Positions 35,867 through 48,113 of a stretch of DNA of 48,113 bases are shown here, one piece after another; position 1 is the first letter of the stretch; each line of letters begins with the position of its first letter. Origin of the DNA: an uncultured Ruminococcus sp. (GTDB lineage Bacteria > Bacillota > Clostridia > Oscillospirales > Acutalibacteraceae); NCBI GenBank assembly GCA_902783855.1, contig CACZSU010000028.1, forward strand, positions 1-48,113, written 5' to 3'. The translations under genes were made by a program, and so were the position numbers. Below the pieces are notes generated by a model. That model had not been told where the DNA came from. It saw nothing but the letters and a program-made list of their open reading frames with translations, and searched no databases.

Positions 35867-35868
35867 GG

Positions 35869-35935: not shown

Positions 35936-36071
35936 ACCATATAGCATAACCTACTAATCACATAGGTTAAATATATTATAAAGCAGGGAGTAATCCATAT
36001 GAATTTCAAACCCTCGCAAAAGCGATGTTGATGCTGTATTTTATAGCAATCAATCTGAGGAGAGAACATAC

Positions 36072-36995
36072 ATGAAAATATATAAGAAAATAACCGATCT
36101 GATCGGAAGAACACCGCTTCTGGAACTGGAAACGGTGGGTAAAAATAACGGAGCAGCCGTTTTCGCAAAGCTAGAGTTTTTTAATCCCGCAGGAAGCGTC
36201 AAGGACAGGATCGCAAAGGCTATGATTGATGACGCAGAAGCCAAGGGCATACTGAAACCCGATTCTGTGATTATCGAGCCGACCAGCGGCAATACGGGAA
36301 TAGGACTTGCGGCTGTCTGTGCAGCAAGAGGATATCAGGTCGTACTGACGATGCCTGAAACAATGAGCATTGAGCGCAGAAATCTTCTGAAAGCATATGG
36401 AGCAAAGGTCGTGCTGACCGAGGGTGTAAAGGGTATGAAGGGCGCCATTAAAAAAGCTCAAGAGCTTGCAGCCGAAAACGCACATAGCTTTATACCAAGT
36501 CAATTTACCAATAGCGCCAACCCGAAGGTGCATTATGATACGACAGGTCCCGAAATATGGGAGGATACTGACGGAAAGATTGATATCTTTGTTGCCGGCG
36601 TCGGCACAGGCGGTACCATCTCCGGTGTCGGCGAGTACCTGAAAAGCAAAAATCCCAAAGTTCAGGTGGTGGCTGTTGAGCCTGCCGGTTCGCCTGTTCT
36701 TTCAGGAGAAAAACCCGGACCGCATAAGATACAGGGTATCGGCGCAGGATTTGTGCCGGAAACTCTGAATACCGCAATTTATGACGAGATCATAAAAGTA
36801 ACGAACGAGGATGCTTTTGAAACAGGCAGGGAGCTTGCAAAAAATGAAGGGCTGCTTGTAGGCATATCATCCGGCGCAGCTGTCCGGGCAGCGTCAGTGC
36901 TTGCAAAGCGTCCGGAAAACAAAGGAAAAATAATTGTAGCAATACTGCCTGATACAGGCGAAAGATACCTGTCCACGGCAATGTTCTCAGTATAG
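36072..36995 (+). CDS. cysK: Cysteine synthase A (O-acetylserine sulfhydrylase)
   Basis: The PLP lysine motif is [11 protein letters not shown], with [10 protein letters not shown] and [10 protein letters not shown]. 307 aa. Confidence 0.9.
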
Positions 36996-37012
36996 AAAAA
37001 GAGGTTTTTGAA

Positions 37013-37156
37013 ATGAAGATCCGCAGTAATTTACAGTTTAATACTGTTTCATCCGAAAGCAATGCATTTGTTTCCGGCAATCATGCTGCGCCTGCTTGCT
37101 GCTGTATGTGTTGTACCGACACAGACGGCTTACAGCGATGTTTTATTTTACCGTAA
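37013..37156 (+). CDS. 47-codon Cys-rich leader peptide ORF (MKIRSNLQFNTVSSESNAFVSGNHAAPACCCMCCTDTDGLQRCFILP)
   Basis: It is below the ORF-track cutoff. The SD AAGAGG (36999-37004) lies 8 nt before ATG 37013. Codons 37097-37114 read TGC TGC TGT ATG TGT TGT. The ORF is embedded in alternative RNA helices that end in a terminator. Confidence 0.6.
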   Translation: MKIRSNLQFNTVSSESNAFVSGNHAAPACCCMCCTDTDGLQRCFILP

Positions 37157-37213
37157 AACAGTTTTTCTGCCATAGCCGTCTGTCTGCACCATCGCAGCAC
37201 AGGCGGCATTTTT
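37097..37213 (+). promoter_or_regulatory. Candidate ribosome-mediated (Cys-codon) transcription attenuator
   Basis: Segment 1 (37101-37111) pairs with segment 2 (37119-37129) at 10 of 11 positions. Segment 2 (37121-37130) pairs with segment 3 (37174-37183) in 10 perfect bp. Segment 3 (37175-37187) pairs with segment 4 (37194-37207). These helices are mutually exclusive. Confidence 0.6.
37175..37213 (+). terminator. Intrinsic terminator of the Cys-leader attenuator
   Basis: GCCGTCTGTCTGC pairs with GCAGCACAGGCGGC: 13 bp with one bulged C, one GU pair and a 6-nt loop. AUUUUUAUGUUU follows. It ends 8 nt before the SD of the next gene. Confidence 0.7.
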
Positions 37214-37233
37214 ATGTTTAGGAGAGAATGATT

Positions 37234-39342
37234 ATGATAGCAGCACAGGAAAGCATTACTGCAAAATTATGTTCCTTTGCCCGGGCATATCACTCAAATA
37301 TCGGGCGAAAGAAAATATTTGACGATTATCTTGCCTATGATCTGATGGGCAAGCAGGAATTTGAGGAAATAGGTCAGCTCATACAGAATGATTTTGATAC
37401 AGACAATATTACGGATAATCCGGATTTCACAGCAGAACAGATCAATCCTAAGCTTAACCGTTATATTGCACCTATTCCGCTTTCAAGAATAGCATTTGCC
37501 GAAACAAAATTGCTTGAATTTGCGAAGAAACATCCTGTATGCCAGTATATTATCTGCGGTGCGGGAATGGATACCTTTGCTTTCAGGAATGAAAAGGCAG
37601 ATATACGGATATTCGAGCTTGACCATCCAGACACCAGCAGATATAAGTGCGAAAGAATACGTGAGCTTGAATGGAACATCCCGAAAAATCTGACATTCGT
37701 ACCCATAGATTTTTCAAAGGATGATATGACACAGGTACTGCTTTCATCAGGCTATGATCCGGATATCCCGACATTCTTTGCGATACTTGGCGTTTTATAT
37801 TATCTGACTTTTCCGGTATTTGAGCAGACAATAAAAAAGATCAGCCGTATTTGCCGTGCAGAAACAGAAGTCGCATTTGACTATCCCGATGAAACAACAC
37901 TTGCAGACAGAAGCCCTGAAAGAGTACATACACTTGCAAAGATCACGGAAAGGCTCGGAGAAAAAATGCTGCACGGCTATTCCTTCCTGGAGATCAGCAC
38001 CGTGCTTGACAAATACGGCTTTGCAATTGAGGATTACAAAACGCCGCAGATGATACAACAGCATTATTTTGCGGACAGGGATGACGGTATCAAAGCATTT
38101 GAAAATATACATTTTATGCTGGCATTCAAAACAAAGGAGAAAGTGAAAATGAAGAATTATATATTTACATCAGAATCTGTTACCAAGGGACACCCCGATA
38201 AGGTCTGCGACATGATATCAGATGCCATACTGGACGCTTTTCTGAAAACAGACAGCCATTCCCGTGTTGCTGTGGAAACGGTTGTCAAGAACAATACAGT
38301 GATACTTGCCGGGGAGGTTTCCTCCACAGGAAGTGTTGATATTGAAAAGACGGTCAGGGATACCATTAACGGTATCGGGTATGACCGCCCGGAGCTTGGG
38401 TTTGATGGTCATTCGGTCAACATCATACAGCTGATTGATAAACAATCGCCTGATATTGCTCAGGGAGTGGATGATGCGCTTGAACACAGAGGTGAACAGA
38501 ATGCCGATATCGGCGCAGGCGATCAGGGAATGATGTTCGGTTATGCTGTTAACGAAACGGAGGAGCTTATGCCCATCCCGATTTCCCTTGCGCATAAGCT
38601 GTCAAGAAAGCTGACGGAGGTAAGAGAAGACGGCTCTCTCCCCTACCTCAGACCTGATGGAAAAACACAGGTTTCCGTTAAATATGAAGGCGGCAGACCT
38701 GTGGGAATAGATACGGTTCTTATCTCCACGCAGCACGACCCGGATATCACACAGGAGCAGATCAGGAATGACCTGATACAATATGTTATTCGTCCGACAC
38801 TTCCCGAAAAATGGAAAAACGATGATTACAAAATACTTGTCAATCCCACCGGACGATTTGTTATCGGAGGACCTGTGGGCGACAGCGGACTGACGGGAAG
38901 GAAAATCATTGTGGATACCTATGGCGGTGCAGCTGCACACGGCGGAGGAGCATTTTCCGGCAAGGATCCTACGAAGGTTGACAGAAGCGCCGCATATGCT
39001 GCAAGATATATTGCCAAAAACATTGTTTCAGCAGGTCTTGCGGAAAAGGCGGAAATACAGCTTGCCTATGCAATCGGTGTTGCTGCACCGGTATCAATAC
39101 TTGTCAATACCTTCGGGACAGGAAGAATATCGGATGATCTTATCAGGCAGGCAGTCGAAAACACAATCGACCTCAGACCCTCGGGGATAATAGAAAGGTT
39201 TGACCTGCAAAGACCGATTTATGCGCGGACTGCATCCTACGGACATTTTGGCAGAACAGACATTGATCTGCCTTGGGAAAGGACAGATCTCGCATCAGAG
39301 CTGAAAAAATATCTTAACCATTATTTCAAGGAGGCAGTGTGA
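37234..39342 (+). CDS. Continuous ORF fusing a class I SAM-dependent methyltransferase (LCMT/TIGR00027-like, about 300 aa) to S-adenosylmethionine synthetase
   Basis: No stop codon separates the methyltransferase part (...[14 protein letters not shown]...IFELDHPDT...) from the MetK part. The start is taken at ATG 37234, 9 nt after GGAG; an ATG at 37228 is also in frame. Confidence 0.75.
38149..39342 (+). CDS. metK: S-adenosylmethionine synthetase module, with its own SD and ATG inside the fusion ORF
   Basis: [32 protein letters not shown]..., [18 protein letters not shown] and [16 protein letters not shown] are canonical MetK motifs. AAAGGAG lies 9 nt upstream of ATG 38149. Confidence 0.9.
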
Positions 39343-39866
39343 TGAATCTGATACCAAGCTTTTCTGTCGATCACAGAGCGATTGTACCTGGCATTTTTAC
39401 AAGCCGCACAGACAGGGTCGGTGACAGTGTGATCACGACATACGATATAAGGCTTACAAGACCGAACAGAGAACCGGCAATAGATGCGGCGGCTATGCAC
39501 TCGCTGGAACATATCATAGCGACCTTTCTGCGGAACGATCCCGATTGGCAGGAGGAAATCATCTACTGGGGACCCATGGGCTGTCTGACAGGATTTTACC
39601 TGATTCTGAAAGGGAACCGTTCTCCCCGTGAGATCTTTGAGCTGATACGGAGTGCTTTCCGGGAGGTTGATCATGTTCAGAGCGTTCCTGGTACATCACC
39701 GGAAAACTGCGGACATTACCTGATGCATAACCTTGGAATGGCAAAATGGTATGCAGAAAGATTTGCAGATTATCTTGATGCGAACGCCGGAAATGATCTG
39801 ATTTATGAATATCCGAGAACAGACCGTCTTATTACGGATGACGGACAGAAGTTCTTTGATTCATAA
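39342..39866 (+). CDS. luxS: S-ribosylhomocysteine lyase
   Basis: The metal motif is HSLEHIIATFLRN, with GCLTGFYL. The ATG overlaps the metK stop (TGATG). Confidence 0.9.
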   Translation: MNLIPSFSVDHRAIVPGIFTSRTDRVGDSVITTYDIRLTRPNREPAIDAAAMHSLEHIIATFLRNDPDWQEEIIYWGPMGCLTGFYLILKGNRSPREIFELIRSAFREVDHVQSVPGTSPENCGHYLMHNLGMAKWYAERFADYLDANAGNDLIYEYPRTDRLITDDGQKFFDS

Positions 39867-39905
39867 AAAATAATTCACACACATTAGTATAAAGGAGTAA
39901 TCATT

Positions 39906-41063
39906 ATGTCAACATATAAACACATTGAATCAGCCCTTATTCACGGGGGCATTTACGGAGATGCATATACAAAGGCAGTCAATGTACCTATCTATCAGAC
40001 ATCGACATACGAACAGAGCGGTATCGGTGAAACGCCGGAGTGGGAATATTCCCGCACAGGCAATCCCACCCGTGCGGCATTGGAAGCACTGATAGCAGAG
40101 CTTGAAGGCGGAAAGGCAGGCTTTGCCTTTGCTTCGGGTATGGCGGCAATTACCGCAGTGCTGAGCCTTTTCCATACCGGCGATAAAATCATCATTTCAA
40201 GCAATGTATATGGCGGCACCTTCCGTGTACTGGATAAGGTATTCAATCATTTTGGAATAGGCTATTCGATCGAAGACACCACCAATATCAAAGAGCTTGA
40301 AGCGAGGATCACCCCGGATGTAAAGGCAATACTGATCGAAAGCCCTGCCAACCCCCTGCTCACTGTTACCGATATCGGCGCGGTGGCGCGTCTTGCCGCC
40401 AAGCATGATATTCTTTCCATTGTGGACAATACCTTTATGACGCCGTATCTGCAAAAGCCCCTTGAACTGGGAGCAGATGTTGTCATTCATAGTGCGACAA
40501 AATATCTTGGCGGTCACAGTGACGTTGTGGCAGGGCTGGTGGTAGTGAATGACGATAAGCTTGCAAAACAGATAGCCTTTATCCAGAATTCAACCGGCGG
40601 CGTTCTCGGTCCCTTTGACAGCTTTTTGCTTATCAGAGGCATCAAAACACTGGGCGTCCGTCTTGACCGCCATGTTGAAAATGCAGAAAAGGCTGCAAAA
40701 TTTCTCAGCGGGCATAAGGCTGTCAAGAAGGTTTATTATCCGGGACTGCCTGATGCACAGGGCTATGCAATCAATCAGCGTCAGGCTAAAAACGGGGGCG
40801 TCATGATCTCGTTTGAGCTTTATGAAAACTACGATATCCATCGGTTCTTTCAGTCACTGAAACTGGTTGCCCTTGCAGAGAGCCTTGGCGGCGTTGAGAG
40901 CCTTGTTTGCCATCCGGCAAGTATGACACACGCTTCCATTCCATACGAGGTACGTCAGAAAATCGGCATCACAGACGGTCTTATCCGTCTTTCCATCGGC
41001 ATTGAAAATATAGATGATATACTTGCCGATCTTGCACAGGCTATTGCAGAAAGCGAGGGTTAA
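39906..41063 (+). CDS. Cys/Met-metabolism PLP enzyme (cystathionine beta/gamma-lyase, MetC/MccB-like)
   Basis: YSRTGNPTR, the PLP lysine motif HSATKYLGGHSD and ESLGGVESL are present. 385 aa. Confidence 0.85.
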   Translation: MSTYKHIESALIHGGIYGDAYTKAVNVPIYQTSTYEQSGIGETPEWEYSRTGNPTRAALEALIAELEGGKAGFAFASGMAAITAVLSLFHTGDKIIISSNVYGGTFRVLDKVFNHFGIGYSIEDTTNIKELEARITPDVKAILIESPANPLLTVTDIGAVARLAAKHDILSIVDNTFMTPYLQKPLELGADVVIHSATKYLGGHSDVVAGLVVVNDDKLAKQIAFIQNSTGGVLGPFDSFLLIRGIKTLGVRLDRHVENAEKAAKFLSGHKAVKKVYYPGLPDAQGYAINQRQAKNGGVMISFELYENYDIHRFFQSLKLVALAESLGGVESLVCHPASMTHASIPYEVRQKIGITDGLIRLSIGIENIDDILADLAQAIAESEG

Positions 41064-41065
41064 TC

Positions 41066-41977
41066 ATGGCACTTTATGAGGATATGCAGCAGCTGATAGG
41101 AAATACTCCGCTGGTAAGACTGAAGCATCTTGACCTTCCCGAGGGTGTAAAATTGTATGCAAAATTAGAACTGCTTAACCCATCCGGCAGTGTCAAGGAC
41201 AGAATCGGAAAATACATGATAGAGGATGCCGAACAAAAAGGCATACTCAAAAAAGGCAGCGTTATCGTAGAAGCTACTGCCGGAAATACAGGACTTGGCA
41301 TTGCCTTTGCAGCACTGAACAGAGGATATCATATTATCTTTGTTGTACCCACAAAGTTTTCTCAGGAAAAGCAGACACTGCTCCGTGCCCTCGGTGCAAG
41401 GATTATCAATACTCCCCGCGAGGGAGGTATGCTGGGTGCATGGAAAAAGGCGGAGGAAATACGCAGCACGATTCCCGGTGCGGTTACGTTGGAGCAGTTC
41501 AAAAACCCGTCCAATCCGCTGGCACATTATGAAACAACAGGAAAAGAAATATATGACGATCTTGGCGGCAATATTGATTATCTTGTGGCAGGAGCAGGAA
41601 GCGGCGGTACATATTCGGGAGTTGTAAAGTACCTTAAAGAGAAAAACGGACATATTGTGGGAGTACTTGCTGATCCTGTCGGTTCCACTATGGGCGGCGG
41701 TGAGCACGGAGAGTACAATATTGAAGGTATCGGAAATGATTTCATCGCTGATACCATGGATATGTCCCTTGTGGACAGGGTGATAAAAATGACTGACAGT
41801 GAGGCTTTTGAGGGTGCAAGGGAGCTTGCAGGGAAAGAAGGCATCTTTGCCGGTTCCTCATCCGGTGCTGCACTTGCGGCTGCCAAAAAGCTGATTGCAG
41901 ACGGCGCAAGAGGAAATATCGTGGTTATTTTTCCTGACAGGGGCGACCGCTACTTTACAAAAAATCTATATGAATAA
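41066..41977 (+). CDS. Cysteine synthase-family PLP enzyme (CysM/MccA-like paralog of cysK)
   Basis: NPSGSVKDRIG, TAGNTGLGIA and GAGSGGTYSG are present. It sits directly after the lyase gene, as in mccA/mccB-type reverse transsulfuration pairs. Confidence 0.85.
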   Translation: MALYEDMQQLIGNTPLVRLKHLDLPEGVKLYAKLELLNPSGSVKDRIGKYMIEDAEQKGILKKGSVIVEATAGNTGLGIAFAALNRGYHIIFVVPTKFSQEKQTLLRALGARIINTPREGGMLGAWKKAEEIRSTIPGAVTLEQFKNPSNPLAHYETTGKEIYDDLGGNIDYLVAGAGSGGTYSGVVKYLKEKNGHIVGVLADPVGSTMGGGEHGEYNIEGIGNDFIADTMDMSLVDRVIKMTDSEAFEGARELAGKEGIFAGSSSGAALAAAKKLIADGARGNIVVIFPDRGDRYFTKNLYE

Positions 41978-41986
41978 AGGTGTATT

Positions 41987-42919
41987 ATGACATTACAACA
42001 GATACATTACGCAATAACTATCTCGGAACAGGGTTCTTTCAATAAGGCGAGCGAGGTGCTGTATATTTCACAGCCCTCGCTCACTGAGGCTGTCAGAGAG
42101 TTGGAAAAGGAACTGGGAATCATTATATTCCACCGCAGCGGCAAGGGTGTTACCCTGACAAGTGACGGCACAGAGTTTATATCCTATGCACGGGATCTGT
42201 ACCGCCAGTATGAAACCATATTAGACCACTACAATGAAAGCGGCACGCTGAAAAAGAAATTCGCCGTTTCGACACAGCATTATTCCTTTGCCGTCAAAAG
42301 CTTTGTGGAACTGGTAAAACAGCTGAATACCGATGAATACGAATTTGCTATAAGAGAAGTCCGCACCCAGAAGGTAATAGAAGATGTCAGCACTCTCAAA
42401 AGTGAAGTTGGCATATTGTATCTGAGCGATTTCAATTCACCGCTTCTTACAAAGCTGATGCGTACAAATAAGCTGGAATTCCATGAGCTTGTCACCTGTG
42501 ATGCATATGTTTACATATGGAAGGGACATCCCTTAGCCAATCATAAAAGCATACGCTTTGAGGAGCTTATAGGATTTCCGAGCCTGTCCTTCGAGCAGGG
42601 CGGAAACGGTTCGATGTATTTTGACGAGGAAATACTCAGCAATAATCACTATCCCCGCACCATCAAGGCTACAGACCGGGCAACAATGCTGAATCTGATG
42701 GTAGGGCTGAACGGCTATACTTTGTGTTCGGGAATCATCTGCGAGGAACTGAACGGCGGAGAATATGTCGCTGTTCCCTACGAGCCTGACACCGATCATC
42801 CCGGCAGCAGAATGAAGATCGGCTATATCACAAAAAAGAACATTCACCTCAGCAGCGTAGGCAAAATGTACATTGCAGAGCTGAAAAAATATTTAGGAGT
42901 ACAAGATGAAGATAATTGA
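41987..42919 (+). CDS. LysR-family transcriptional regulator
   Basis: The N-terminal HTH is FNKASEVLYISQPSLTEAVRELEKELG, followed by a LysR substrate-binding domain of typical length (310 aa). Confidence 0.85.
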   Translation: MTLQQIHYAITISEQGSFNKASEVLYISQPSLTEAVRELEKELGIIIFHRSGKGVTLTSDGTEFISYARDLYRQYETILDHYNESGTLKKKFAVSTQHYSFAVKSFVELVKQLNTDEYEFAIREVRTQKVIEDVSTLKSEVGILYLSDFNSPLLTKLMRTNKLEFHELVTCDAYVYIWKGHPLANHKSIRFEELIGFPSLSFEQGGNGSMYFDEEILSNNHYPRTIKATDRATMLNLMVGLNGYTLCSGIICEELNGGEYVAVPYEPDTDHPGSRMKIGYITKKNIHLSSVGKMYIAELKKYLGVQDEDN

Positions 42920-43691
42920 CTTTCACGCACATATTTATCCTGATAAGATAGCAGAAAAGGCTTCACAGGCAACAGGTGACTTTTACAATATATCGCCTGC
43001 TCACAGCGGGACATCACAGGAACTGCTGGCTTCCGGCAAAGCGGCGGGTATATCAGAATTTGTACTGCTTCCGGTTGCAACAAAACCGGATCAGGTAAGG
43101 CATATCAACGAGTTTATTGCACGGGAAGCAGATGCACACAGGGAGTTTTCCGGCTTTGGCACACTTCATCCGGATGGAGAAAATATGCTTGCGGAAACGG
43201 AATATATCATAAACTCAGGTCTGAAAGGCATCAAGCTCCATCCTGATACCCAGCAGTTCAATACGGACGATAAAAGGCTGTATGAAGTGTTTGACTATAT
43301 GCAGGACAGACTTCCGCTGCTTGTTCACTGCGGAGATAAACGCTTTGATTTTTCACATCCCCGCCGTCTGAAAAATGTCATAGACAGCTTTCCCCGTTTG
43401 CAGATAATCGCAGCACATCTCGGCGGCTGGTCGCTTTTTGACGAAGCATTTGAGATTCTTCGCAATACAGACTGTTTTCTTGATATTTCAAGCACGATGA
43501 TGTTTTTGCCCCCTGAAAAGGTGGTGCGGTACATACACGGATATGGAGCAGACAGAATCCTTTTCGGCACAGATTATCCGCTGTGGGATCCAAAAAAAGA
43601 AACAGAAAACTTCCTGCGCCTTGATCTCAGTAATGCTGAGCGTGAGCTGATAGCCTGGAAAAACGGGATGACAATACTAAGGAATCACTGA
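42906..43691 (+). CDS. Amidohydrolase_2-type TIM-barrel metal-dependent hydrolase
   Basis: The N-terminal HxH metal motif lies in MKIIDFHAHIYPD. KLHPD, AHLGG and GTDYP are also present. It overlaps the LysR gene by 14 bp. Confidence 0.75.
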   Translation: MKIIDFHAHIYPDKIAEKASQATGDFYNISPAHSGTSQELLASGKAAGISEFVLLPVATKPDQVRHINEFIAREADAHREFSGFGTLHPDGENMLAETEYIINSGLKGIKLHPDTQQFNTDDKRLYEVFDYMQDRLPLLVHCGDKRFDFSHPRRLKNVIDSFPRLQIIAAHLGGWSLFDEAFEILRNTDCFLDISSTMMFLPPEKVVRYIHGYGADRILFGTDYPLWDPKKETENFLRLDLSNAERELIAWKNGMTILRNH

Positions 43692-43696
43692 ACATA

Positions 43697-43713
43697 TTAT
43701 AGGTAAAACCTAT
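43697..43713. promoter_or_regulatory. Second copy of the palindromic box, TATAGG-TAAAA-CCTATT (candidate LysR-type operator)
   Basis: It is centred at 43705, exactly 30 bp upstream of the -35 hexamer at 43735. Extra half-site-like CCTATA (43715-43720), CCTATC (43724-43729) and ATAGGG (43750-43755) follow. Confidence 0.55.
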
Positions 43714-43734
43714 TACCTATAATACCTATCAGAT

Positions 43735-43764
43735 ATTAGACAAATAAATCATAGGGTGTTATAA
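43735..43764 (+). promoter_or_regulatory. Sigma-A-type promoter of the leader/ABC-transporter operon
   Basis: The -35 is TTAGAC (43735-43740). An 18-nt spacer leads to the extended -10, TG-t-TATAAT (43756-43764). Confidence 0.55.
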
Positions 43765-43794
43765 TAAACACATCAAACGGAAAGGAGTAACAGC

Positions 43795-43896
43795 CATGAC
43801 AAAGACAACTGTAATGACAACGTGTATGAATAGCTGTATGTGTATGACGCAGAAAGCGGTTTTCTGTGTCAGAGCTTGCTGCGCTTTCCGAATGTG
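43795..43896 (+). CDS. 33-codon Cys/Met-rich leader peptide ORF (MTKTTVMTTCMNSCMCMTQKAVFCVRACCAFRM)
   Basis: It is below the ORF-track cutoff. The SD AAAGGAG lies 8 nt before ATG 43795. It has 6 Cys and 7 Met (including the start) in 33 codons and is followed by alternative helices and a terminator. Confidence 0.55.
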
Positions 43897-43918
43897 AGGA
43901 TCTTTCTGCGTTTCACAC

Positions 43919-43946
43919 GGGAAGTCAGCCAGTGACTTCCTTTTTT
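43919..43946 (+). terminator. Intrinsic terminator downstream of the second leader ORF
   Basis: GGAAGTCA (43919-43926) pairs with TGACTTCC (43932-43939) across a 5-nt loop, followed by T7 (43940-43946). Confidence 0.65.
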
Positions 43947-43986
43947 TGTGCCCTCGGGCAAAAAAAGGATATGAAAGGAAATAGAA

Positions 43987-44220
43987 ATGAAGAAACTGAT
44001 TACAGCGGCTGTGCTTGCCGCCATGCTGAGCATAACCGTTTTGGGAGGATGTACGACAGCTTCGGGAAAAGCATACAGCAGCGATGAGAGTACAGCAGTA
44101 TCTGCCGCAGAGGAAAGCAGTAAAAACAGCTGCTGCCGTGAGGAAAGCGAAAAGTCCGGCTGCTGCAAAGACAAAAGCGAAGACAGCTCTCACATTCCCG
44201 ACTGTTGTAACGATGAATAA
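43987..44220 (+). CDS. Small acidic lipoprotein with three Cys-Cys pairs
   Basis: The signal and lipobox are MKKLITAAVLAAMLSITVLGGC. The mature part is Ser/Glu-rich and contains NSCCRE, SGCCKD and PDCCNDE. Confidence 0.6.
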   Translation: MKKLITAAVLAAMLSITVLGGCTTASGKAYSSDESTAVSAAEESSKNSCCREESEKSGCCKDKSEDSSHIPDCCNDE

Positions 44221-44247
44221 AATCAAAAAAGGAAAGGATCAATCACC

Positions 44248-45384
44248 ATGCATATCAATACAAAAATAAAAATCACTGCTGCCTTTCTCGCAGCCACCCT
44301 TACACTGACAGCCCTCGCAGGCTGCAATACACCTGAAGACAACGCATCATCCGAAAACAGCCAGTCAGATACCTCGGCTGCTTCATCGCAGAACAATGAA
44401 AAGCCGGCTCTTGAAAAAACAAGCTTCAATTTAGGACATCTCAATTCAACAGCCCATCTTTTAGGCTTTGTTGCCAAGGAGGAAGGTTATTTTGAGGAAG
44501 AAGGTCTTGATGTAACCCTCACCCTGTTTTCCTCCGCCGCAGAGCTGTCAACCGGACTTGAATCCGACAAGCTGGATGTTGCTTTTATCGGTTCTGTGCC
44601 GTCCATCACCTTCCAGAGTCAGGGACATGATCTAACCATCTTCGGCGGTGCCATGACAAACGGTCACGGCTATGTTATCAAGCCGCAGTATGTCGAGGGA
44701 CTTGACAAATGGGATGTTTCCATTCTTAAGGGCAGAAACGTGGCTTCCGTCAAAAACAGCGTTCAGGATGCCGAGCTGCAAATCCTGCTCAAGGACAAAG
44801 GTATTGCCATCGGCGAGGGCAGCGACAAGGTAAACATCGTTTATTTTGACAGCCAGAAGGATGCTTACAATGCTCTCCAGAATGACAGCATTGATGCAGT
44901 ATCGGCATATTCTCCCTATACCTCACTTGCTGAAAGTCAGGGATATAAGGTTGTTTACCGCTGCTCGGAAGAACCGCTGCTCGAAAACCAGCCCTGCTGC
45001 CGTCAGGTTGCTTCCACATCAGCACTGAGCAAATACCCGAATTCCTATCAGGCATTTGAAAGAGCGCTGATCAAGGCATACAAGTTCACACAGGAAAACA
45101 AGGAGCAGACAGTAAAGGACGTCAAGAAGTATATTGATATCGAGGAAGACCTCATTAACACCGAGATTTACGGCGGCTACGGCACATCTGTTCCCGATCC
45201 GGATAAGCAGGGTACGGTGGCTCTCAAAAAATCTATTGTTGAGCTTGGATATACAGAGGACTATGACATTGATAAGCTCTACAATACGGACGTTTATAAG
45301 AATGCACTTGAAAGCCTTATCAAAGAAAACCCCGGCGATGAGATATATGAAGGATTGCAGAAGCATTTTGACGAATTTGAATAA
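44248..45384 (+). CDS. ABC transporter substrate-binding lipoprotein (NMT1/SsuA/TauA-like)
   Basis: The lipobox is LTALAGC. The remainder has the fold pattern of NitT/TauT-family binding proteins (LGHLNSTAHLLGFVAKEEGYF...). It sits next to the cognate ATPase and permease. Confidence 0.8.
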   Translation: MHINTKIKITAAFLAATLTLTALAGCNTPEDNASSENSQSDTSAASSQNNEKPALEKTSFNLGHLNSTAHLLGFVAKEEGYFEEEGLDVTLTLFSSAAELSTGLESDKLDVAFIGSVPSITFQSQGHDLTIFGGAMTNGHGYVIKPQYVEGLDKWDVSILKGRNVASVKNSVQDAELQILLKDKGIAIGEGSDKVNIVYFDSQKDAYNALQNDSIDAVSAYSPYTSLAESQGYKVVYRCSEEPLLENQPCCRQVASTSALSKYPNSYQAFERALIKAYKFTQENKEQTVKDVKKYIDIEEDLINTEIYGGYGTSVPDPDKQGTVALKKSIVELGYTEDYDIDKLYNTDVYKNALESLIKENPGDEIYEGLQKHFDEFE

Positions 45385-45420
45385 TTCCGGCAATTCATCC
45401 GGAAAGAAAAGCAGAGATGA

Positions 45421-46239
45421 ATGTATATGAGTAAAATAGAGGTAAATCATCTGACAGTGGATTATATCGAAAAGAAAAAGAGCTTTACTGCGCTGAAGGA
45501 TGTTAGTTTTTCGATCCAGTCAGGCGAATTTGTCAGCGTGATCGGTTCCAGCGGATGCGGTAAAAGTACTTTGCTCAGCATCCTTGAGGGGATTCATACG
45601 CCCACAAGCGGCGAAATTCTGATTGACGGAGAACCAATAAAAGGAACGGGTACCGACAGAGGAGTCGTTTTCCAGCATTATTCGCTGTTTCCGTGGATGA
45701 CAGCAAGAAAAAATGTGGCATTCGGCATCAAGCAGGTCAATAAATCTGCAAGCAGAACTGAGCGTTATCAGATTGCCGATGCGTTTCTTGAAAAGGTGGG
45801 GCTGGAACAATTCAAAAACAAATATCCCTCTCAGCTTTCCGGCGGAATGCAGCAGCGTGTTGCTATTGCACGGGCACTGGCAATGGATACGGATATTCTG
45901 CTGATGGACGAACCTTTCGGAGCAATTGACGCAAAGAACCGCACCATATTACAGGAACTACTGTTGGAACTGTGGGAGGGCGACGGTACAAAGGAAAGAA
46001 AAACCGTTGTATTCGTCACCCATGATATAGATGAGGCAATATTGCTTTCCGACAAGATTGTGATGATGACCGCAAATCCCGGTCGTGTCTATCGTGAGAT
46101 AAAGGTTCCCTTTGACCGCCCCAGAAACCGTGCGCAGCTTGTGCAGACAAAGGATTATAACGTATTCAGAAACAAGCTGCTTTCCATGTTTTACAGTGAC
46201 ATTGCCGATAAGATCGGCGGCGAGGAGGTTGTACTGTAA
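45421..46239 (+). CDS. ABC transporter ATP-binding protein (NitT/TauT family, SsuB-like)
   Basis: Walker A is GSSGCGKST, the signature is LSGGMQQRV and Walker B is ILLMDEP. VFQHYSLFPWMT is also present. Confidence 0.9.
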   Translation: MYMSKIEVNHLTVDYIEKKKSFTALKDVSFSIQSGEFVSVIGSSGCGKSTLLSILEGIHTPTSGEILIDGEPIKGTGTDRGVVFQHYSLFPWMTARKNVAFGIKQVNKSASRTERYQIADAFLEKVGLEQFKNKYPSQLSGGMQQRVAIARALAMDTDILLMDEPFGAIDAKNRTILQELLLELWEGDGTKERKTVVFVTHDIDEAILLSDKIVMMTANPGRVYREIKVPFDRPRNRAQLVQTKDYNVFRNKLLSMFYSDIADKIGGEEVVL

Positions 46240-47231
46240 TGAATATACAAACCAATGCATCACCAACAATACAGTTTGATAAAAAAACAAAAACAGAGTC
46301 CCCTCTCAAAGCAGAGATCTTCAGCAGATATTTCAGAGTGGTTCATGCCCTGTTTGCTGTACTCATACTGATACAGCTTCTGCCGGATCAGCTTCCCACA
46401 GAAACATATGCGGCTTATGCGGTATGGTTTGCAGCCGGAGTGGAAGTATTAACACTGATTCTTTCGGCTTTTATCAAAAAGCCGGCAAGTCTGAATCTCT
46501 TTGTGGATATCGTAGCCTTTATCTACGGACTGCTGATTGCATGGACACTGGCAACGGCAAAATTCAATATTCTGAAAGCCGCACTGTTCCCGCCGCCCGG
46601 AAAGGTCCTGTGGCAGTTTATCAGTGATTATGACAAGATACTCACCAATATTCAAAGCTCAGTCGGTATTATTCTGCAGGGCTATCTGCTGGCAATCGCA
46701 GCTGCCGTTCCCCTGGGTCTGTTTCTTGGATGGAGCGCCAGACTTGGCGGCGCCGCTGCATACATCTCAAAATTTCTGGGCGCCATTCCGCCCATTGTCT
46801 ATATTCCCTATGGCATTGCCCTTCTTCCCACCTTCCGCAGCGTTTCGGTATTTGTCATCTTTCTTGCCACCTTCTGGCCGGTGCTGGGAGGAACAATGAG
46901 CGGGGTCATGAATGTAGAAAAAAAGACCATAGATTCTGCAAAGGTGCTGAATGTAGGAAAATTCACCATGCTGTTTTCCGTTATTCTTCCGGCATCCCTG
47001 CAGCAAATATTCATCGGCTGCAATCAGGGACTTACCGTTTCCTTTGTTCTGCTGACGTCAGCGGAGATGATCGGCGCACAAAGCGGTCTGGGCTATTATA
47101 TCAAGAATTACTCTGATTTCGGTGACTATACAAGAACGATAGTCGGTCTGATCGTTGTGGGCATCGTGATCGTATTTATCTCATTTATATTTAACAGAAT
47201 ACAGAAATTCCTGCTTCGCTGGAAGCAGTGA
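46239..47231 (+). CDS. ABC transporter permease (SsuC/TauC-like)
   Basis: A polytopic protein with an EAA-like loop (DSAKVLNVGKFTMLFSVILPAS). Its start overlaps the ATPase stop. Confidence 0.85.
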   Translation: MNIQTNASPTIQFDKKTKTESPLKAEIFSRYFRVVHALFAVLILIQLLPDQLPTETYAAYAVWFAAGVEVLTLILSAFIKKPASLNLFVDIVAFIYGLLIAWTLATAKFNILKAALFPPPGKVLWQFISDYDKILTNIQSSVGIILQGYLLAIAAAVPLGLFLGWSARLGGAAAYISKFLGAIPPIVYIPYGIALLPTFRSVSVFVIFLATFWPVLGGTMSGVMNVEKKTIDSAKVLNVGKFTMLFSVILPASLQQIFIGCNQGLTVSFVLLTSAEMIGAQSGLGYYIKNYSDFGDYTRTIVGLIVVGIVIVFISFIFNRIQKFLLRWKQ

Positions 47232-47244
47232 CGGAGGTGTAAGA

Positions 47245-47766
47245 ATGAAAGAAATTATCTGGCACGGACGAGGCGGACAAGGGGCATTCACTGCCGCACG
47301 GCTTCTGGGGGAAGCCTGGTCCCTCAGAGAAAACACCTTTGTCCTTGCTTTCCCGTCCTTCGGACCTGAACGCAGAGGCGCGCCGATCAGAGCCTTTACA
47401 AAACTCGATGTAAAGCCTATCGGCAACAGAAGTGAAATAACAAAGGCGGATTACAGTATTTTTCTTGATGATACCCTGTTTACCCCGCAGGCATTCAATG
47501 AACTGAAGCCGGACGGAAACATACTTTTAAATACGAAAAAAAGCGTTGCTGACAAGAGAGTGATCACCATTGACGGCGACAGTATTGCCGAAAAATACCT
47601 GAGGCTGCCCATCACGAATACCATACTGCTTGGTGCATTAGCCGCTGTTTCAGGGCTTATTTCTCTTGACGCGCTTACAGACGCTGTAAGGCAGACAATG
47701 CCGCCGCGTCTTCACGAAAAAAACATAGCAGCCATAACGGCAGCTTATGAGGAGGCGGAAACATGA
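47245..47766 (+). CDS. 2-oxoacid:ferredoxin oxidoreductase, gamma subunit
   Basis: MKEIIWHGRGGQGAFTAARLLGEA...FPSFGPERRGAP is the POR/OFOR gamma signature. Confidence 0.85.
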   Translation: MKEIIWHGRGGQGAFTAARLLGEAWSLRENTFVLAFPSFGPERRGAPIRAFTKLDVKPIGNRSEITKADYSIFLDDTLFTPQAFNELKPDGNILLNTKKSVADKRVITIDGDSIAEKYLRLPITNTILLGALAAVSGLISLDALTDAVRQTMPPRLHEKNIAAITAAYEEAET

Positions 47767-48053
47767 AGCCCTATCTCAGAGAAAACATACCAGCAGGCTT
47801 TGAGGATATACCCGATACTACCTCCTATGAAGCAGGCTATTTAGTAACAAAAAATGCAGGCTGGCGAAATGTCAGACCCGTTATAGACATAACAAAATGT
47901 GTCGGTTGTCTGAATTGTTACCTTCACTGTCCGGATGGAGTGATCTTCCGGAAGGATGGCAAAGTCAGTATAGATTATGATTTCTGCAAGGGCTGCGGCA
48001 TCTGTAAAACGGTCTGTAAGCCCGGCGCAATCAGAATGGAGGCGGAAAAGTAA
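47763..48053 (+). CDS. 2-oxoacid:ferredoxin oxidoreductase, delta (2x[4Fe-4S] ferredoxin) subunit
   Basis: The two cluster motifs are CVGCLNCYLHCP and CKGCGICKTVCP-like. It overlaps the gamma subunit gene by 4 bp. Confidence 0.85.
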   Translation: MKPYLRENIPAGFEDIPDTTSYEAGYLVTKNAGWRNVRPVIDITKCVGCLNCYLHCPDGVIFRKDGKVSIDYDFCKGCGICKTVCKPGAIRMEAEK

Positions 48054-48113
48054 TGGCAAGACAGTTTTTATCAGGAAATGAAGCCTTTGCTTACGGTGTA
48101 CGTCTTGCAAGAC
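48053..48113 (+). CDS. 2-oxoacid:ferredoxin oxidoreductase, alpha subunit (5' fragment, runs off the window)
   Basis: MARQFLSGNEAFAYGVRLAR matches the usual alpha-subunit N-terminus (GNEAxAxG). The ATG overlaps the delta stop (TAATG). Confidence 0.55.
   Translation, partial: MARQFLSGNEAFAYGVRLAR

What the first reader, a model, noticed from the sequence alone, without database searches (positions are those of the whole stretch)
43795..43946. Second hidden leader ORF (33 codons, 6 Cys and 7 Met) with anti-antiterminator, antiterminator and terminator helices upstream of the transporter operon
The ORF runs from 43795 to 43896, with SD AAAGGAG 8 nt upstream. It encodes MTKTTVMTTCMNSCMCMTQKAVFCVRACCAFRM, with a dense C-M-N-S-C-M-C-M cluster at 43822-43845 and a CC pair at 43876-43881. 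Alternative helices follow. ACGCAGAAAG (43846-43855), directly after the cluster, pairs perfectly (10 bp) with CTTTCTGCGT (43901-43910); its GAAAGCG part (43851-43857) can instead pair in 7 bp with CGCTTTC (43881-43887). CTTTCCG..TGTGAGG (43883-43898) pairs with TTTCACACGGGAAG (43910-43923) in a bipartite helix of 7 plus 5-7 bp with a 2-nt bulge; this antiterminator consumes the 5' arm of the terminator. GGAAGTCA and TGACTTCC (43919-43939) plus U7 form the terminator. A ribosome stalled in the Cys/Met cluster would cover 43846-43857 and favour the antiterminator. A ribosome that reaches the stop codon (43894-43896) would occlude the antiterminator's 5' arm and favour termination. Finding a second, non-homologous Cys/Met-rich leader with the same logic 6.8 kb from the first, in front of an SsuABC-like uptake operon, makes chance much less likely. 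It points to a small attenuation regulon for sulfur amino acids.
Basis: partly seen in the sequence, partly recalled or inferred. Interest (0 to 1): 0.8.

Follow-up and report, generated by a model that had tools for sequence, protein, structure and literature searches.

The report
Cysteine/methionine-rich leader ORF with terminator
A tiny, previously unannotated 33-codon reading frame packed with cysteine and methionine codons, followed by a transcription stop signal, sits in front of a sulfur-compound uptake operon in rumen Ruminococcus-like bacteria and most likely switches that operon on when sulfur amino acids run short.

Summary
The ORF is 43796-43897.

The ORF, its Shine-Dalgarno site and an intrinsic terminator recur upstream of the same SsuA-like ABC operon. 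I found them in 50 of 80 related genomes and in 14 metagenome contigs. One of those contigs carries the unit in front of a metN-like methionine importer instead.

Codon-position variation shows coding selection. No Rfam, Pfam or NCBIfam family matches.

In the window, the ORF's 3' end pairs with the terminator's 5' arm, giving an antiterminator of -14.7 kcal/mol against -13.0 for the terminator. Ribosome-masking simulations keep the antiterminator while the ribosome sits in the Cys/Met cluster and lose it once the ribosome reaches codons 26-33. In distant homologues an ORF-embedded antiterminator covaries with the terminator arm (0/20000 permutations).

Best reading: ribosome-mediated transcription attenuation keyed to Cys (and possibly Met) codons, layered on a LysR-type promoter. 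This is a new member of a known kind.

Unexplained: the invariant CC...CGA-AUG-UGA ORF end, echoed by a CGA-UGU-UGA uORF upstream of cysK.

The parts
43699..43729 (.). Operator-like repeats: the palindrome ATAGGT-AAA-ACCTAT (a T-N11-A, LysR-type box centred about -65 from the predicted start), followed by TACCTATAATACCTAT next to the -35 element.
   Evidence: Read. The arrangement ATAGG-N5-CCTAT + TACCTAtnATACCTAT + TTAGACA is conserved upstream of the leader in near and far homologues. The palindrome arms change together (ATAGA..TCTAT, ATAGC..GCTAT). A LysR-family regulator gene lies at 41987-42919.
43737..43765 (+). Sigma-70-type promoter: TAGACA, 17 nt spacer, TG-n-TATAAT. Predicted transcription start is about 43772-43775.
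   Evidence: It is the best promoter match in the scanned stretch 36000-48113 (11 of 12, with extended -10). The position is conserved in homologues. The start site is inferred.
43781..43787 (+). Shine-Dalgarno sequence AAAGGAG, 8 nt upstream of the ATG.
   Evidence: A GGAG/GGAGG site at the same spacing is present in all 49 distinct homologues.
43796..43897 (+). Leader ORF, 33 codons plus UGA: MTKTTVMTTCMNSCMCMTQKAVFCVRACCAFRM*.
   Evidence: The ORF is conserved in 50 of 80 loci and 14 metagenome contigs. Codon-position entropy over the last 25 codons is 8.5, 13.0 and 18.4 bits for positions 1, 2 and 3. The frame is open in 49 of 49. There is no Pfam or NCBIfam match.
43823..43846 (+). Proposed sensor codons C10-M11-N-S-C14-M15-C16-M17. 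A further Cys codon, C24, lies at 43865-67.
   Evidence: Conservation in 38 near sequences: C10 in 35, C16 in 38, C24 in 37 (with TGT/TGC both used). The far group keeps M-C-M-C-M-M. A ribosome masked at these codons leaves the terminator's 5' arm sequestered.
43845..43871 (+). Local hairpin a:b inside the ORF (43845-55 pairs with 43861-71). It may act as a pause or insulating hairpin. Segment a can alternatively pair with segment c.
   Evidence: -14.1 kcal/mol, z -4.15, 0 of 200 shuffles fold as well. 91% of cells are paired in 39 relatives, with AU to GC exchange at one pair. It is the only helix RNAalifold keeps.
43902..43911 (+). Segment c (CTTTCTGCGT), the perfect complement of segment a (43847-56).
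   Evidence: The a:c helix plus the terminator is the minimum-energy fold of the full leader. The duplex is -16.2 kcal/mol. Across relatives it is only 72% paired with no covariation, and it is the best ORF partner in about 20 of 39.
43883..43925 (+). Antiterminator. The 5' strand is 43883-90 plus 43893-99, i.e. the last ORF codons and the stop codon. The 3' strand is 43911-25, which overlaps the terminator's 5' arm.
   Evidence: -14.7 kcal/mol, against -13.0 for the terminator. It forms in the minimum-energy fold of the transcript truncated before the terminator's 3' arm. 78% of cells are paired, against at most 57% for slid controls, and 0 of 500 shuffles reach this.
43919..43948 (+). Intrinsic terminator: a 9-bp stem (43919-27 / 43933-41), the loop GCCAG, then U7. 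The predicted short transcript is about 175 nt.
   Evidence: z -2.9. Every homologue with the ORF in the 49-sequence set has a hairpin plus U-run at this place, in three different sequence types.
43987..47231 (+). Downstream genes presumed to be controlled: a 77-aa Cys-rich lipoprotein (43987-44220), an SsuA/NMT1-family binding protein (44248-45384), an ABC ATPase (45421-46239) and a permease (46239-47231). The operon continues into 2-oxoacid:ferredoxin oxidoreductase genes.
   Evidence: The gene order is conserved in the related loci.

Best explanation
This is a ribosome-mediated (leader-peptide) transcription attenuator for sulfur amino acids.

Transcription starts near 43772 from a promoter that carries a LysR-type operator. 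The roughly 175-nt leader encodes a 33-codon ORF. The ORF's last codons (43883-43899) form the 5' strand of an antiterminator. The antiterminator's 3' strand (43911-25) overlaps the 5' arm of an intrinsic terminator (43919-41 plus U7).

When charged tRNA-Cys (and possibly tRNA-Met) is plentiful, the first ribosome reaches the ORF's end. It covers the antiterminator's 5' strand while RNA polymerase makes the terminator. The terminator forms, and in this window it is reinforced by a:c pairing. Transcription ends near 43946.

When Cys or Met is scarce, the ribosome stalls in the C-M-x-x-C-M-C-M cluster (43823-46) or at C24. These sites are upstream of the antiterminator strand. The antiterminator forms first, and polymerase reads on into the lipoprotein / SsuA-like ABC / oxidoreductase operon.

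Shown: the conserved ORF with a coding signature, the conserved terminator, the mutually exclusive pairings, and the ORF-embedded antiterminator that covaries in distant homologues.

Inferred: that the ORF is translated, that the ribosome stalls, the direction of the response, and which amino acid is sensed.
For: Conservation of the unit:
- SD, ATG, ORF and terminator are conserved upstream of the same operon in 50 of 80 genomes and 14 metagenome contigs.
- The N-terminus is variable. The Cys positions and the ORF end are conserved between the near group (..CMCMTQKAVFCVRACCAFRM*) and the far group (MCMCMMRxxDCCxxRCCxSRM*).
- Third-codon positions vary most, and Cys, Ala and Val codons change synonymously.
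- The leader frame is open in 49 of 49.

Structure in the window:
- The full leader folds to a:c plus terminator, at -52 kcal/mol.
- The transcript lacking the terminator's 3' arm folds to a:b plus antiterminator.
- The antiterminator is -14.7 kcal/mol against -13.0 for the terminator.

Ribosome-mask simulations on 49 homologues:
- In the near group, the terminator's 5' arm stays sequestered for A-site codons 2 to about 25. Sequestration falls at codons 26-33.

Far group:
- The best partner of the terminator arm is a mid-ORF segment right after the M-C-M-C cluster.
- Cognate duplexes average -12.4 kcal/mol against -8.5 +/- 0.65 for permuted partners, with 0 of 20000 permutations as low.

No known RNA class:
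- No riboswitch or T-box is found in the window or upstream of leaderless orthologous operons.

Context:
- The neighbours are cysK, a methyltransferase-MetK fusion, luxS, and MccB- and MccA-like genes.
- The operon encodes an SsuA-family binding protein and a methionine-aminotransferase-like enzyme.
- In contig L133 the same promoter-leader-terminator unit precedes a metN-like ATPase with a NIL domain.
- A second conserved poly-Cys leader and a third conserved uORF ending in a single Cys codon lie in the same cluster.
Against: - No expression data of any kind is available.
- In the near group the sequences are too similar for a covariation test of the antiterminator (cognate -10.4 against non-cognate -9.8).
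- At equilibrium the full-length RNA of most near homologues forms the terminator whatever the ribosome position. The model therefore depends on kinetics.
- Free RNA favours the antiterminator before the terminator's 3' arm exists. Termination therefore needs a ribosome close behind polymerase. That coupling is not established for Clostridia and is reported absent in Bacillus subtilis (my own knowledge, not checked here).
- The most conserved codons (C28, C29, CGA-AUG-UGA) lie within the antiterminator's 5' strand, where stalling should give termination.
- In the far group, a ribosome stalled at the second Cys of the cluster would already touch the antiterminator strand.
- The a:c helix is not conserved.
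- Some distant homologues keep an R-C-C ORF without any terminator.
Confidence: 0.6

Rival explanations
1. The parts are the same but the logic is different or dual. The decisive stall is at the invariant ORF end (C-C-x-x-R(CGA)-M-UGA). A ribosome held there keeps the antiterminator's 5' strand covered, so shortage of Met (or Cys) at these codons lowers expression. Stalling at the upstream Cys codons raises it. The operon would then be on only when Cys is low and Met is adequate, or it would be induced by sufficiency.
For: - C28, C29, R32 (always CGA), M33 and UGA are the most conserved positions of the family. They survive in minimal variants such as ...KRCCERM*.
- Masking a ribosome at codons 26-33 frees the terminator arm.
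- CGA is the rarest Arg codon in the window's genes, 7 of 190.
- A conserved uORF upstream of cysK ends with the parallel CGA-UGU-UGA.
Against: - An importer plus an apparent Met-forming pathway is expected to be induced by shortage, not repressed.
- The upstream cluster also contains Met codons, which would give the opposite response to Met shortage.
- A ribosome would meet the upstream Cys codons first.
- In the far group the ORF end does not overlap the covarying antiterminator strand.
Confidence: 0.12
2. The nascent peptide, not codon supply, is the sensor. The conserved Cys residues and C-terminal motif would act inside the ribosome tunnel to arrest elongation or release at UGA, in response to a small molecule or a thiol-binding metal. 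This would resemble TnaC with tryptophan or CruR with copper, and it would set the terminator/antiterminator choice.
For: - Within the near group, amino-acid-level conservation of the C-terminal 16 residues is higher than usual for leader peptides.
- The stop is UGA in 36 of the 38 distinct near-group sequences and in most far-group members (exceptions: L051 ends RMR* at UAA and the degenerate L045 variant uses UAA), and the stop codon sits in the 5' arm of a hairpin in near and most far members.
- There is a precedent for a Cys-motif uORF with a C-terminal arrest motif: CruR, PMC9426467.
- Met/Cys-rich motifs and the Cys-rich lipoprotein downstream could suggest a metal.
Against: - Between near and far groups only the Cys positions and R-M-stop are kept. 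The residues between them are not. That fits codon sensing or RNA constraints better than a tunnel-binding motif.
- The context is sulfur-amino-acid metabolism, not metal homeostasis.
- The terminator is intrinsic, not Rho-dependent.
- Much of the near-group conservation coincides with base-paired segments.
Confidence: 0.1
3. The ORF encodes a small Cys-rich protein with a function of its own, for example a partner of the lipoprotein or transporter. The hairpin is then simply its (leaky) terminator, with no attenuation.
For: - There is a coding signature and conservation.
- The ORF was occasionally called as a gene in public assemblies (two unnamed clusters).
Against: - The N-terminal half is variable. 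I saw no signal-peptide-like or membrane-spanning segment by reading the peptide; no predictor was run.
- The ORF-embedded segment covaries with the terminator arm.
- The ORF always lies between a regulated-looking promoter and the operon, with no second promoter evident.
- Degenerate variants are tolerated (stop lost in L009, CC to FF in L067).
- The unit has been transplanted in front of a different transporter.
Confidence: 0.06
4. This is an RNA switch that works without translation, either an unknown riboswitch or a protein-binding leader. The ORF is then a by-product.
For: - Several nucleotide strings are more conserved than coding needs. Examples are TTCCGAATGTGA in the near group, and CGATGTTG shared by far-group leaders and the cysK uORF.
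- The a:b hairpin is conserved.
Against: - There is no match to any of 4227 Rfam families, even at E <= 10.
- SD and ATG are conserved at fixed spacing and the frame is open in 49 of 49.
- Cys codons are kept through synonymous changes that co-vary with the pairing partner (UGU/UGC in L046 against L062).
- The overall fold is not unusually stable (z -1.7 and -0.7).
Confidence: 0.04

Closest known systems
Classical leader-peptide transcription attenuators of amino-acid operons (trpL, hisL, leuL, pheL, thrL, ilvL of Proteobacteria; the Leu-rich ilv leader of Staphylococcus aureus, PMC5794164)
   Same: - A short SD-led ORF in the 5' leader is enriched in codons of the relevant amino acids.
- An intrinsic terminator lies before the first structural gene.
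- An antiterminator overlaps the terminator's 5' arm, and its formation depends on where the ribosome sits.
   Different: - The codons are Cys plus Met, and they are dispersed rather than in one tandem run.
- The antiterminator's 5' strand is the ORF's own 3' end (near group) or mid-ORF (far group).
- A 1:2-type anti-antiterminator is not conserved.
- The ORF end (CC..CGA-AUG-UGA) is conserved beyond what those leaders show.
- The host is a Clostridia lineage, where sulfur genes are usually under T-box or S-box control.
- The controlled genes are an uptake operon.
Polycysteine leaderless short ORFs of mycobacteria, the 'Cys ribulon' (Canestrari et al., bioRxiv 10.1101/834739), and the earlier predicted Cys leader peptides of Actinobacteria (PMC1262725)
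   Same: - Cys-codon-rich uORFs head several sulfur/cysteine loci of one genome.
- The ribosome acts as the common sensor of Cys supply.
- Here three different Cys uORFs lie in one gene cluster.
   Different: - The mycobacterial ORFs are leaderless, carry consecutive poly-Cys tracts, and act by unmasking the next gene's ribosome-binding site, with no terminator hairpin.
- This ORF has an SD and a 24-nt 5' UTR. Its Cys codons are scattered, with at most two in tandem. A clear intrinsic terminator follows it.
uORFC-8-2 motif upstream of cysS in Rhodobacterales (Brewer et al. 2021, PMC8632094)
   Same: It is a predicted ribosome-mediated attenuator with conserved Cys codons in a uORF and a terminal U-run.
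   Different: - It has two tandem Cys codons located inside the first stem.
- It is found only upstream of cysS in alpha-proteobacteria.
- There is no sequence or structure match here.
CruR (DUF2946) copper-sensing uORF of Bordetella (PMC9426467), and TnaC
   Same: - A uORF product has conserved Cys residues and a conserved C-terminal motif next to the stop codon.
- It controls transcription of downstream transporter genes.
   Different: - CruR and TnaC act through peptide-mediated arrest and Rho-dependent termination, and they sense a ligand rather than tRNA charging.
- Here the terminator is intrinsic, the context is sulfur-amino-acid metabolism, and no arrest motif such as RAPP is present.

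Membership tests
Leader-peptide (ribosome-mediated) transcription attenuator | A short ORF with its own ribosome-binding site lies in the 5' leader, between the promoter and the first structural gene. | tested here: met
   Promoter at 43737-65, SD at 43781-87, ORF at 43796-43897, next gene at 43987. This arrangement is conserved in 49 distinct homologues.
Leader-peptide (ribosome-mediated) transcription attenuator | The ORF is enriched in codons of the amino acid(s) made or acquired by the controlled genes, and these codons are the conserved part of the peptide. | tested here: met
   6 Cys and 6 Met in 33 codons, with P of 1e-7 and 3.5e-5 against the local proteome. The Cys positions are the columns conserved between near and far groups. 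The operon is SsuA-like with a Met-aminotransferase-like gene, in a cysK/metK/luxS/mccAB cluster.
Leader-peptide (ribosome-mediated) transcription attenuator | An intrinsic terminator lies between the ORF and the structural genes. | tested here: met
   A 9-bp stem plus U7 at 43919-48. It is present in every homologue that has the ORF among the 49 analysed, in different sequence versions.
Leader-peptide (ribosome-mediated) transcription attenuator | An antiterminator is mutually exclusive with the terminator, and its formation depends on ribosome position in the ORF. | tested here: inconclusive
   In the window, 43883-99 / 43911-25 gives -14.7 kcal/mol, forms in the truncated transcript, and is lost when a ribosome is masked at codons 26-33. 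In the far group an ORF-embedded strand covaries with the terminator arm (0 of 20000). In the near group there is too little variation for covariation. Equilibrium folding of the full RNA gives the terminator regardless of ribosome position.
Leader-peptide (ribosome-mediated) transcription attenuator | An anti-antiterminator or pause hairpin (a 1:2 structure) gives termination when the leader is not being translated. | tested here: inconclusive
   The a:c helix (43847-56 / 43902-11) co-occurs with the terminator in the minimum-energy fold of the window, but it is not conserved. The a:b hairpin is conserved, but its role is unknown.
Leader-peptide (ribosome-mediated) transcription attenuator | Termination and read-through respond to supply of the cognate amino acid and require translation of the leader. 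| not testable with these tools
   This needs term-seq, reporter or in vitro coupled assays.
Mycobacterial polycysteine leaderless sORF attenuators | The mRNA is leaderless, starting at the AUG/GUG of the sORF. | tested here: not met
   The predicted start is about 24 nt upstream of the ATG, and an SD is conserved.
Mycobacterial polycysteine leaderless sORF attenuators | A consecutive poly-Cys tract is present, and control works by unmasking the downstream ribosome-binding site, without a terminator. | tested here: not met
   At most two adjacent Cys codons occur, and an intrinsic terminator is present. The neighbouring leader at 37013-37156 does have a CCCMCC tract, but it is also followed by a hairpin and a U-run.
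Known sulfur-related RNA switches (SAM riboswitches, Cys/Met T-boxes) and any Rfam family, including curated leader motifs | The sequence matches the family's covariance model. | tested here: not met
   No hit at gathering thresholds in the whole window. Only chance-level hits at E <= 10 in 43650-44000. None upstream of orthologous operons that lack the leader.
Ligand-sensing arrest peptides (TnaC, CruR/DUF2946, SpeFL) | Peptide residues are conserved beyond the sensor codons, including a C-terminal arrest motif, and termination is Rho-dependent. | tested here: inconclusive
   The C-terminal R-M-UGA and CC are conserved, but no Pfam or NCBIfam match exists. Residues between the Cys positions are not conserved across groups. 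The terminator is intrinsic. Arrest itself is not testable here.

The most novel reading that the evidence does not exclude
The locus may carry a Firmicute 'sulfur ribulon' built from a shared three-codon sensor. The sensor is a rare Arg codon CGA in the P site, one sensor codon in the A site (UGU for cysK, UGU-UGY or AUG for the transporter leader), then UGA embedded in the 5' arm of a hairpin.

The CGA (inosine-A wobble) and the RF2-read stop would make ribosome dwell time at that spot very sensitive to Cys-tRNA or Met-tRNA. One leader could then read Cys and Met separately: early Cys codons would turn the operon on, and the terminal Met codon would veto it when Met is lacking.

This would be a two-input attenuator. 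It would control a so far undescribed route that imports a methylthio acid and turns it into methionine by reductive carboxylation.
Probability: 0.2. Interest if true: 0.8.

Novelty: new member of a known kind. Interest (0 to 1): 0.6.

Why it matters
Sulfur-amino-acid genes of Firmicutes are thought to be controlled mainly by T-box and SAM riboswitches and by protein regulators. Leader-peptide attenuation is rare there, and Cys-specific examples are known only from Actinobacteria and predicted in alpha-proteobacteria.

This finding would add an undescribed and unannotated leader family. I found at least 60 instances in rumen and gut Oscillospiraceae- and Lachnospiraceae-like genomes. The same gene cluster holds two more Cys-codon uORFs and a LysR-type promoter.

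Together these give a compact and testable system for how strict anaerobes couple ribosome stalling to sulfur scavenging. It also flags the controlled operon as a candidate methionine/cysteine acquisition pathway in fibre-degrading rumen bacteria. That operon encodes an SsuA-like importer, a Cys-rich lipoprotein, a 2-oxoacid:ferredoxin oxidoreductase, a CoA ligase and a Met-type aminotransferase.

Tried and rejected
- Rfam scans found nothing. I ran gathering thresholds on the whole window, permissive thresholds on the leader, and gathering thresholds on 13 orthologous loci without the leader. A known riboswitch, T-box or leader family is rejected.
- Pfam and NCBIfam searches with three leader peptides, the first leader and the lipoprotein gave no family.
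- The search for homologous proteins refuses queries under 40 aa. The exhaustive HMMER search with the 33-aa peptide found only two called peptide clusters, both unnamed.
- Equilibrium P(terminator) with a masked ribosome was uninformative. The local terminator wins almost everywhere. I replaced it with the truncated-transcript test.
- I first read the far-group helix between the first CC region and the segment 5' of the terminator as an anti-antiterminator. It is in fact the continuation of one long antiterminator helix.
- Pairing of the far-group ORF end (UCCCGAA) with the terminator arm is rejected. Cognate and non-cognate energies are equal.
- Cognate versus non-cognate tests in the near group have no power: antiterminator, b with the terminator arm, and a with c. 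A type-level comparison between the two terminator types of the near group was equally uninformative.
- RNAalifold on the near alignment kept only the a:b hairpin, because the terminator types are misaligned.
- The 155-aa antisense ORF 43759-44226 is rejected as a gene. It is a shadow frame whose third positions coincide with the leader's, and it stays open across leader and terminator in only 11 of 49 relatives.
- A search for further copies of the leader elsewhere in the 80 loci and the window found none.
- Three literature searches found no description of this family.
Full report

Yes, with corrections. All reader coordinates are 1 nt too low.
- The ORF is 43796-43897 and encodes MTKTTVMTTCMNSCMCMTQKAVFCVRACCAFRM*.
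- It has 6 Cys and 6 Met, not 7 Met.
- The SD AAAGGAG lies at 43781-87, 8 nt before the ATG.
- The strongest sigma-70-type promoter match in the scanned stretch 36000-48113 is at 43737-65: TAGACA, 17 nt, TG-n-TATAAT. The predicted 5' UTR is therefore about 24 nt.
- The quoted helices exist. ACGCAGAAAG (43847-56) is the perfect complement of CTTTCTGCGT (43902-11). CTTTCCG..TGTGAGG (43884-99) pairs with TTTCACACGGGAAG (43911-24). GGGAAGTCA / TGACTTCCT (43919-41) followed by U7 is a textbook terminator.

At the Cys and Met frequencies of the window's own proteins (0.69% and 1.98%), six Cys in 33 residues has P = 1e-7 and six Met has P = 3.5e-5.

**2. Context**

The gene order is as follows:
- cysK (36072)
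- a 47-codon poly-Cys ORF (37013-37156)
- a methyltransferase-MetK fusion
- luxS
- a cystathionine-lyase-like gene
- a second CysK/MccA-like gene
- a LysR regulator
- an amidohydrolase
- the present leader
- a 77-aa Cys-rich lipoprotein
- an NMT1/SsuA-family binding protein, an ABC ATPase and a permease
- 2-oxoacid:ferredoxin oxidoreductase subunits

In the complete genome of Ruminococcus sp. JE7B6 the operon continues with the oxidoreductase alpha and beta subunits, a PaaK-like CoA ligase and a methionine-aminotransferase-like enzyme.

**3. Comparative evidence that the ORF is a real, translated element**

A scan of one genome per species with the binding protein returned 80 loci. They come from rumen and gut Ruminococcus, Acutalibacteraceae, Oscillospiraceae and Lachnospiraceae genomes.

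In 50 of them a 29-37-codon ORF lies upstream. It falls into two groups:
- The near group (39 distinct sequences) reads ...C.N.CMC.TQ+AVFCV+ACCAFRM*.
- The far group reads ...MCMCMMRxxDCCxxRCCxSRM*.

All have a GGAG-type SD at the right spacing, an ATG, and a hairpin plus U-run downstream.

The N-terminus is free to vary. The Cys positions and the last codons are kept.

Over the last 25 codons of the near group, the summed entropy is 8.5, 13.0 and 18.4 bits at codon positions 1, 2 and 3. Cys, Val, Ala and Gln codons change synonymously.

The leader frame is open in 49 of 49 distinct sequences. The other sense frames are open in 0 and 9.

The long antisense ORF listed by the ORF finder is a shadow frame. 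It is not conserved across the terminator.

A metagenome scan with a far-group DNA pattern gave 116 matching stretches, of which 14 are true family members. Wherever the contig reaches far enough, the same operon follows. The exception is L133, where the same LysR-box / promoter / leader / terminator unit precedes an ABC ATPase with a NIL domain. That is the MetN type of methionine importer, and it lies next to metK.

No further copy occurs elsewhere in the loci.

The family is unknown to Rfam, Pfam and NCBIfam. Gene callers have called it only twice among 1.84 billion representative proteins, without a name. Three literature searches found no description.

**4. RNA structure in the window**

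- The full leader folds into a:c (43847-56 / 43902-11) plus the terminator, at -52 kcal/mol. The centroid instead shows a local hairpin a:b plus the antiterminator.
- Truncated just before the terminator's 3' arm, the minimum-energy fold is a:b plus the antiterminator.
- Element energies are: a:b -14.1 kcal/mol (z -4.15, 0 of 200 shuffles fold as well), antiterminator -14.7, terminator -13.0 (z -2.9).

The two alternatives are therefore nearly isoenergetic, as in working attenuators.

**5. Which helices are conserved?**

On the near-group alignment A1:
- a:b is 91% paired, with one AU/GC exchange.
- The antiterminator is 78% paired, against at most 57% for slid controls.
- The terminator is 84% paired, despite three different terminator versions.
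Segment a is the best ORF partner of the post-stop segment in only about 20 of 39 sequences.

The near group is too uniform for a cognate versus non-cognate test.

The far group is informative. The best partner of the terminator's 5' arm is a mid-ORF segment, 47-51 nt before the stop. It lies right after the M-C-M-C-M-M cluster and runs into the first CC pair. Examples are CCGAGAA / TTCTCGG, TCCAAAGA / TCTTTGGA and CCGAAGT / ACTTCGG.

Cognate duplexes average -12.4 kcal/mol against -8.5 +/- 0.65 for permuted partners. None of 20000 permutations was as low, using 15 non-redundant sequences.

Synonymous Cys-codon changes co-vary with the partner strand (UGU-UGU / ACAACA in L046 against UGC-UGU / AGCAA in L062). 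These positions are therefore constrained both as Cys codons and as paired bases.

An ORF-embedded antiterminator is thus a property of the family. Its position within the ORF differs between the groups.

**6. Ribosome-position simulations**

I masked a ribosome footprint (A site -15 to +12) at every codon of 49 homologues.
- At equilibrium on the full RNA, the terminator forms almost regardless of ribosome position.
- In the kinetically relevant transcript that lacks the terminator's 3' arm, the near group keeps the terminator's 5' arm sequestered in free RNA and for A-site codons 2 to about 25. Sequestration drops once the ribosome is at codons 26-33.

A ribosome held in the Cys/Met cluster (or at C24) allows the antiterminator. 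A ribosome at the ORF end removes it.

It also shows that untranslated RNA would tend to read through. Termination therefore requires a ribosome close behind polymerase.

**7. What remains unexplained**

The most conserved positions of the whole family are the CC pair at codons -6/-5 and the final CGA-AUG-UGA. Arg is always CGA, the rarest Arg codon locally at 7 of 190, and the stop is almost always UGA.

In the near group these codons lie inside the antiterminator's 5' strand. Stalling there should favour termination.

The stop codon sits in the 5' arm of a hairpin in near and most far members.

Minimal or terminator-less relatives keep R-C-C and R-M in frame...KRCCERM*...SERMRCC.....RCMNRMCC...

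A third conserved uORF of 9-10 codons upstream of cysK ends with the invariant AARCGATGTTGA, which reads K-R(CGA)-C-UGA. This parallels the R(CGA)-M-UGA end of the present leader.

A shared 'CGA / sensor codon / UGA' module is therefore possible. So is a more complex logic, such as separate reading of Cys and Met, or a role of the nascent peptide. These are listed as rivals and as the novel case.

**8. Second layer of control**

Upstream of the promoter lie ATAGGT-AAA-ACCTAT and TACCTATAATACCTAT (43699-43729). They are conserved in near and far groups, and the palindrome arms change together. Position and form fit a LysR-type activator site, and a LysR gene lies two genes upstream. Attenuation would act on top of this.

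**9. Comparison with known systems**

The element works like classical leader-peptide attenuators.

It is not a member of the mycobacterial polycysteine leaderless sORF class. That class has no SD, carries consecutive Cys codons, unmasks a ribosome-binding site and has no terminator. It is also not the Rhodobacterales cysS uORF motif.

CruR and TnaC are conceptual neighbours only if the peptide itself senses something.

**10. Verdict**

The finding is a genuine, conserved, unannotated Cys/Met-rich leader ORF with a terminator and an antiterminator. It is most likely a ribosome-mediated attenuator of a sulfur-compound uptake and utilisation operon (confidence 0.6).

I classify it as a new member of a known kind. 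Some features may turn out to be a new variant: dual Cys/Met codons, the invariant CGA-AUG-UGA end, and three different Cys uORFs in one cluster.

Noticed in passing
window 37013-37156 (ORF) and 37085-37215 (structure): The 'first leader' is a 47-codon ORF, MKIRSNLQFNTVSSESNAFVSGNHAAPACCCMCCTDTDGLQRCFILP*, between cysK and the methyltransferase-MetK / luxS / mccB / mccA operon. It is conserved as ..AAPxCCCMCCxDTGG.. in 30 loci, including the far group. Its poly-Cys codons form the 5' strand of a long hairpin (-47.6 kcal/mol, z -4.15) that ends in a U-run. A ribosome stalled on the Cys codons would therefore directly melt the terminator.
   Followed up: partly
window 35999-36031: A third conserved uORF lies upstream of cysK: [10 protein letters not shown], with SD GGGAG. 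In 18 of 28 distinct cysK upstream regions a 9-10-codon ORF ends with the invariant nucleotides AARCGATGTTGA (K, R as CGA, C as UGU, stop as UGA). The stop codon lies in the 5' arm of a hairpin. The 8-mer CGAUGUUG is the same as the R-C-C of far-group transporter leaders.
   Followed up: partly
window 43699-43765; also 35860-35970 upstream of cysK: A LysR-type operator architecture is conserved across near and far homologues: ATAGG-N5-CCTAT, then TACCTATAATACCTAT, then -35 TTAGACA and -10 TATAAT. Related ACCTA/TAGGT palindromes flank the cysK promoter (for example AACCTACTAATCACATAGGTT). The likely regulator is the LysR gene at 41987-42919.
   Followed up: partly
window 43987-44220: A 77-aa lipoprotein (lipobox LGGC) carries three CC pairs and a conserved C-terminal [IV]PDCC motif. 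It or a similar CC-rich lipoprotein lies between leader and binding-protein gene in many loci (for example L004, L017, L020, L044, L048, L058). It has no Pfam or NCBIfam family.
   Followed up: partly
L011 10007-18337 (window 44248-48113 is the beginning of the same operon): The operon content is: an SsuA-like ABC importer, a four-subunit 2-oxoacid:ferredoxin oxidoreductase, a PaaK-like CoA ligase and a methionine-aminotransferase-like enzyme. This resembles the rumen reductive-carboxylation routes from organic acids to amino acids. It could make methionine from an imported methylthio acid. This is inference only.
   Followed up: no
L133 2680-3120: In one metagenome contig the same LysR-box / promoter / leader (MKKNNCRHAMCMCTGKSKDRRYGRCCCARM*) / terminator unit precedes a metN-like ABC ATPase with a NIL domain and follows metK. 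The leader is therefore modular and linked to methionine uptake. A partial copy of the TATTACCTA box also lies between the terminator and metN.
   Followed up: partly
L049 6499-6570, L080 7987-8055, L072 5575-5688, L137 (reverse strand, ORF ending at 8716 in match orientation), L044 9638-9715: Distant orthologous operons carry short SD-led ORFs that keep R-C-C and R-M in frame (..SERMRCC.., ..RCMNRMCC.., ..KRCCERM*) but have no recognisable terminator. Some family members may act on translation or through another route.
   Followed up: no
window 37228-39342: One 704-aa protein fuses a leucine-carboxyl-methyltransferase-like (LCM) SAM-dependent methyltransferase domain to a complete SAM synthetase (MetK). 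It sits at the head of the luxS / mccB / mccA operon. This arrangement would channel Met into SAM, then a methyl transfer, then S-adenosylhomocysteine, for conversion to cysteine.
   Followed up: no
L009 9386-9526; L067 9719-9814; L007 7676-7771: Natural variants of the leader exist. In L009 the stop is lost (TGA to TGG), which extends the ORF by 13 codons into the terminator region. In L067 the second CC is replaced by FF. In L007 several Cys are lost. These could serve as natural mutants for testing which codons matter.
   Followed up: no
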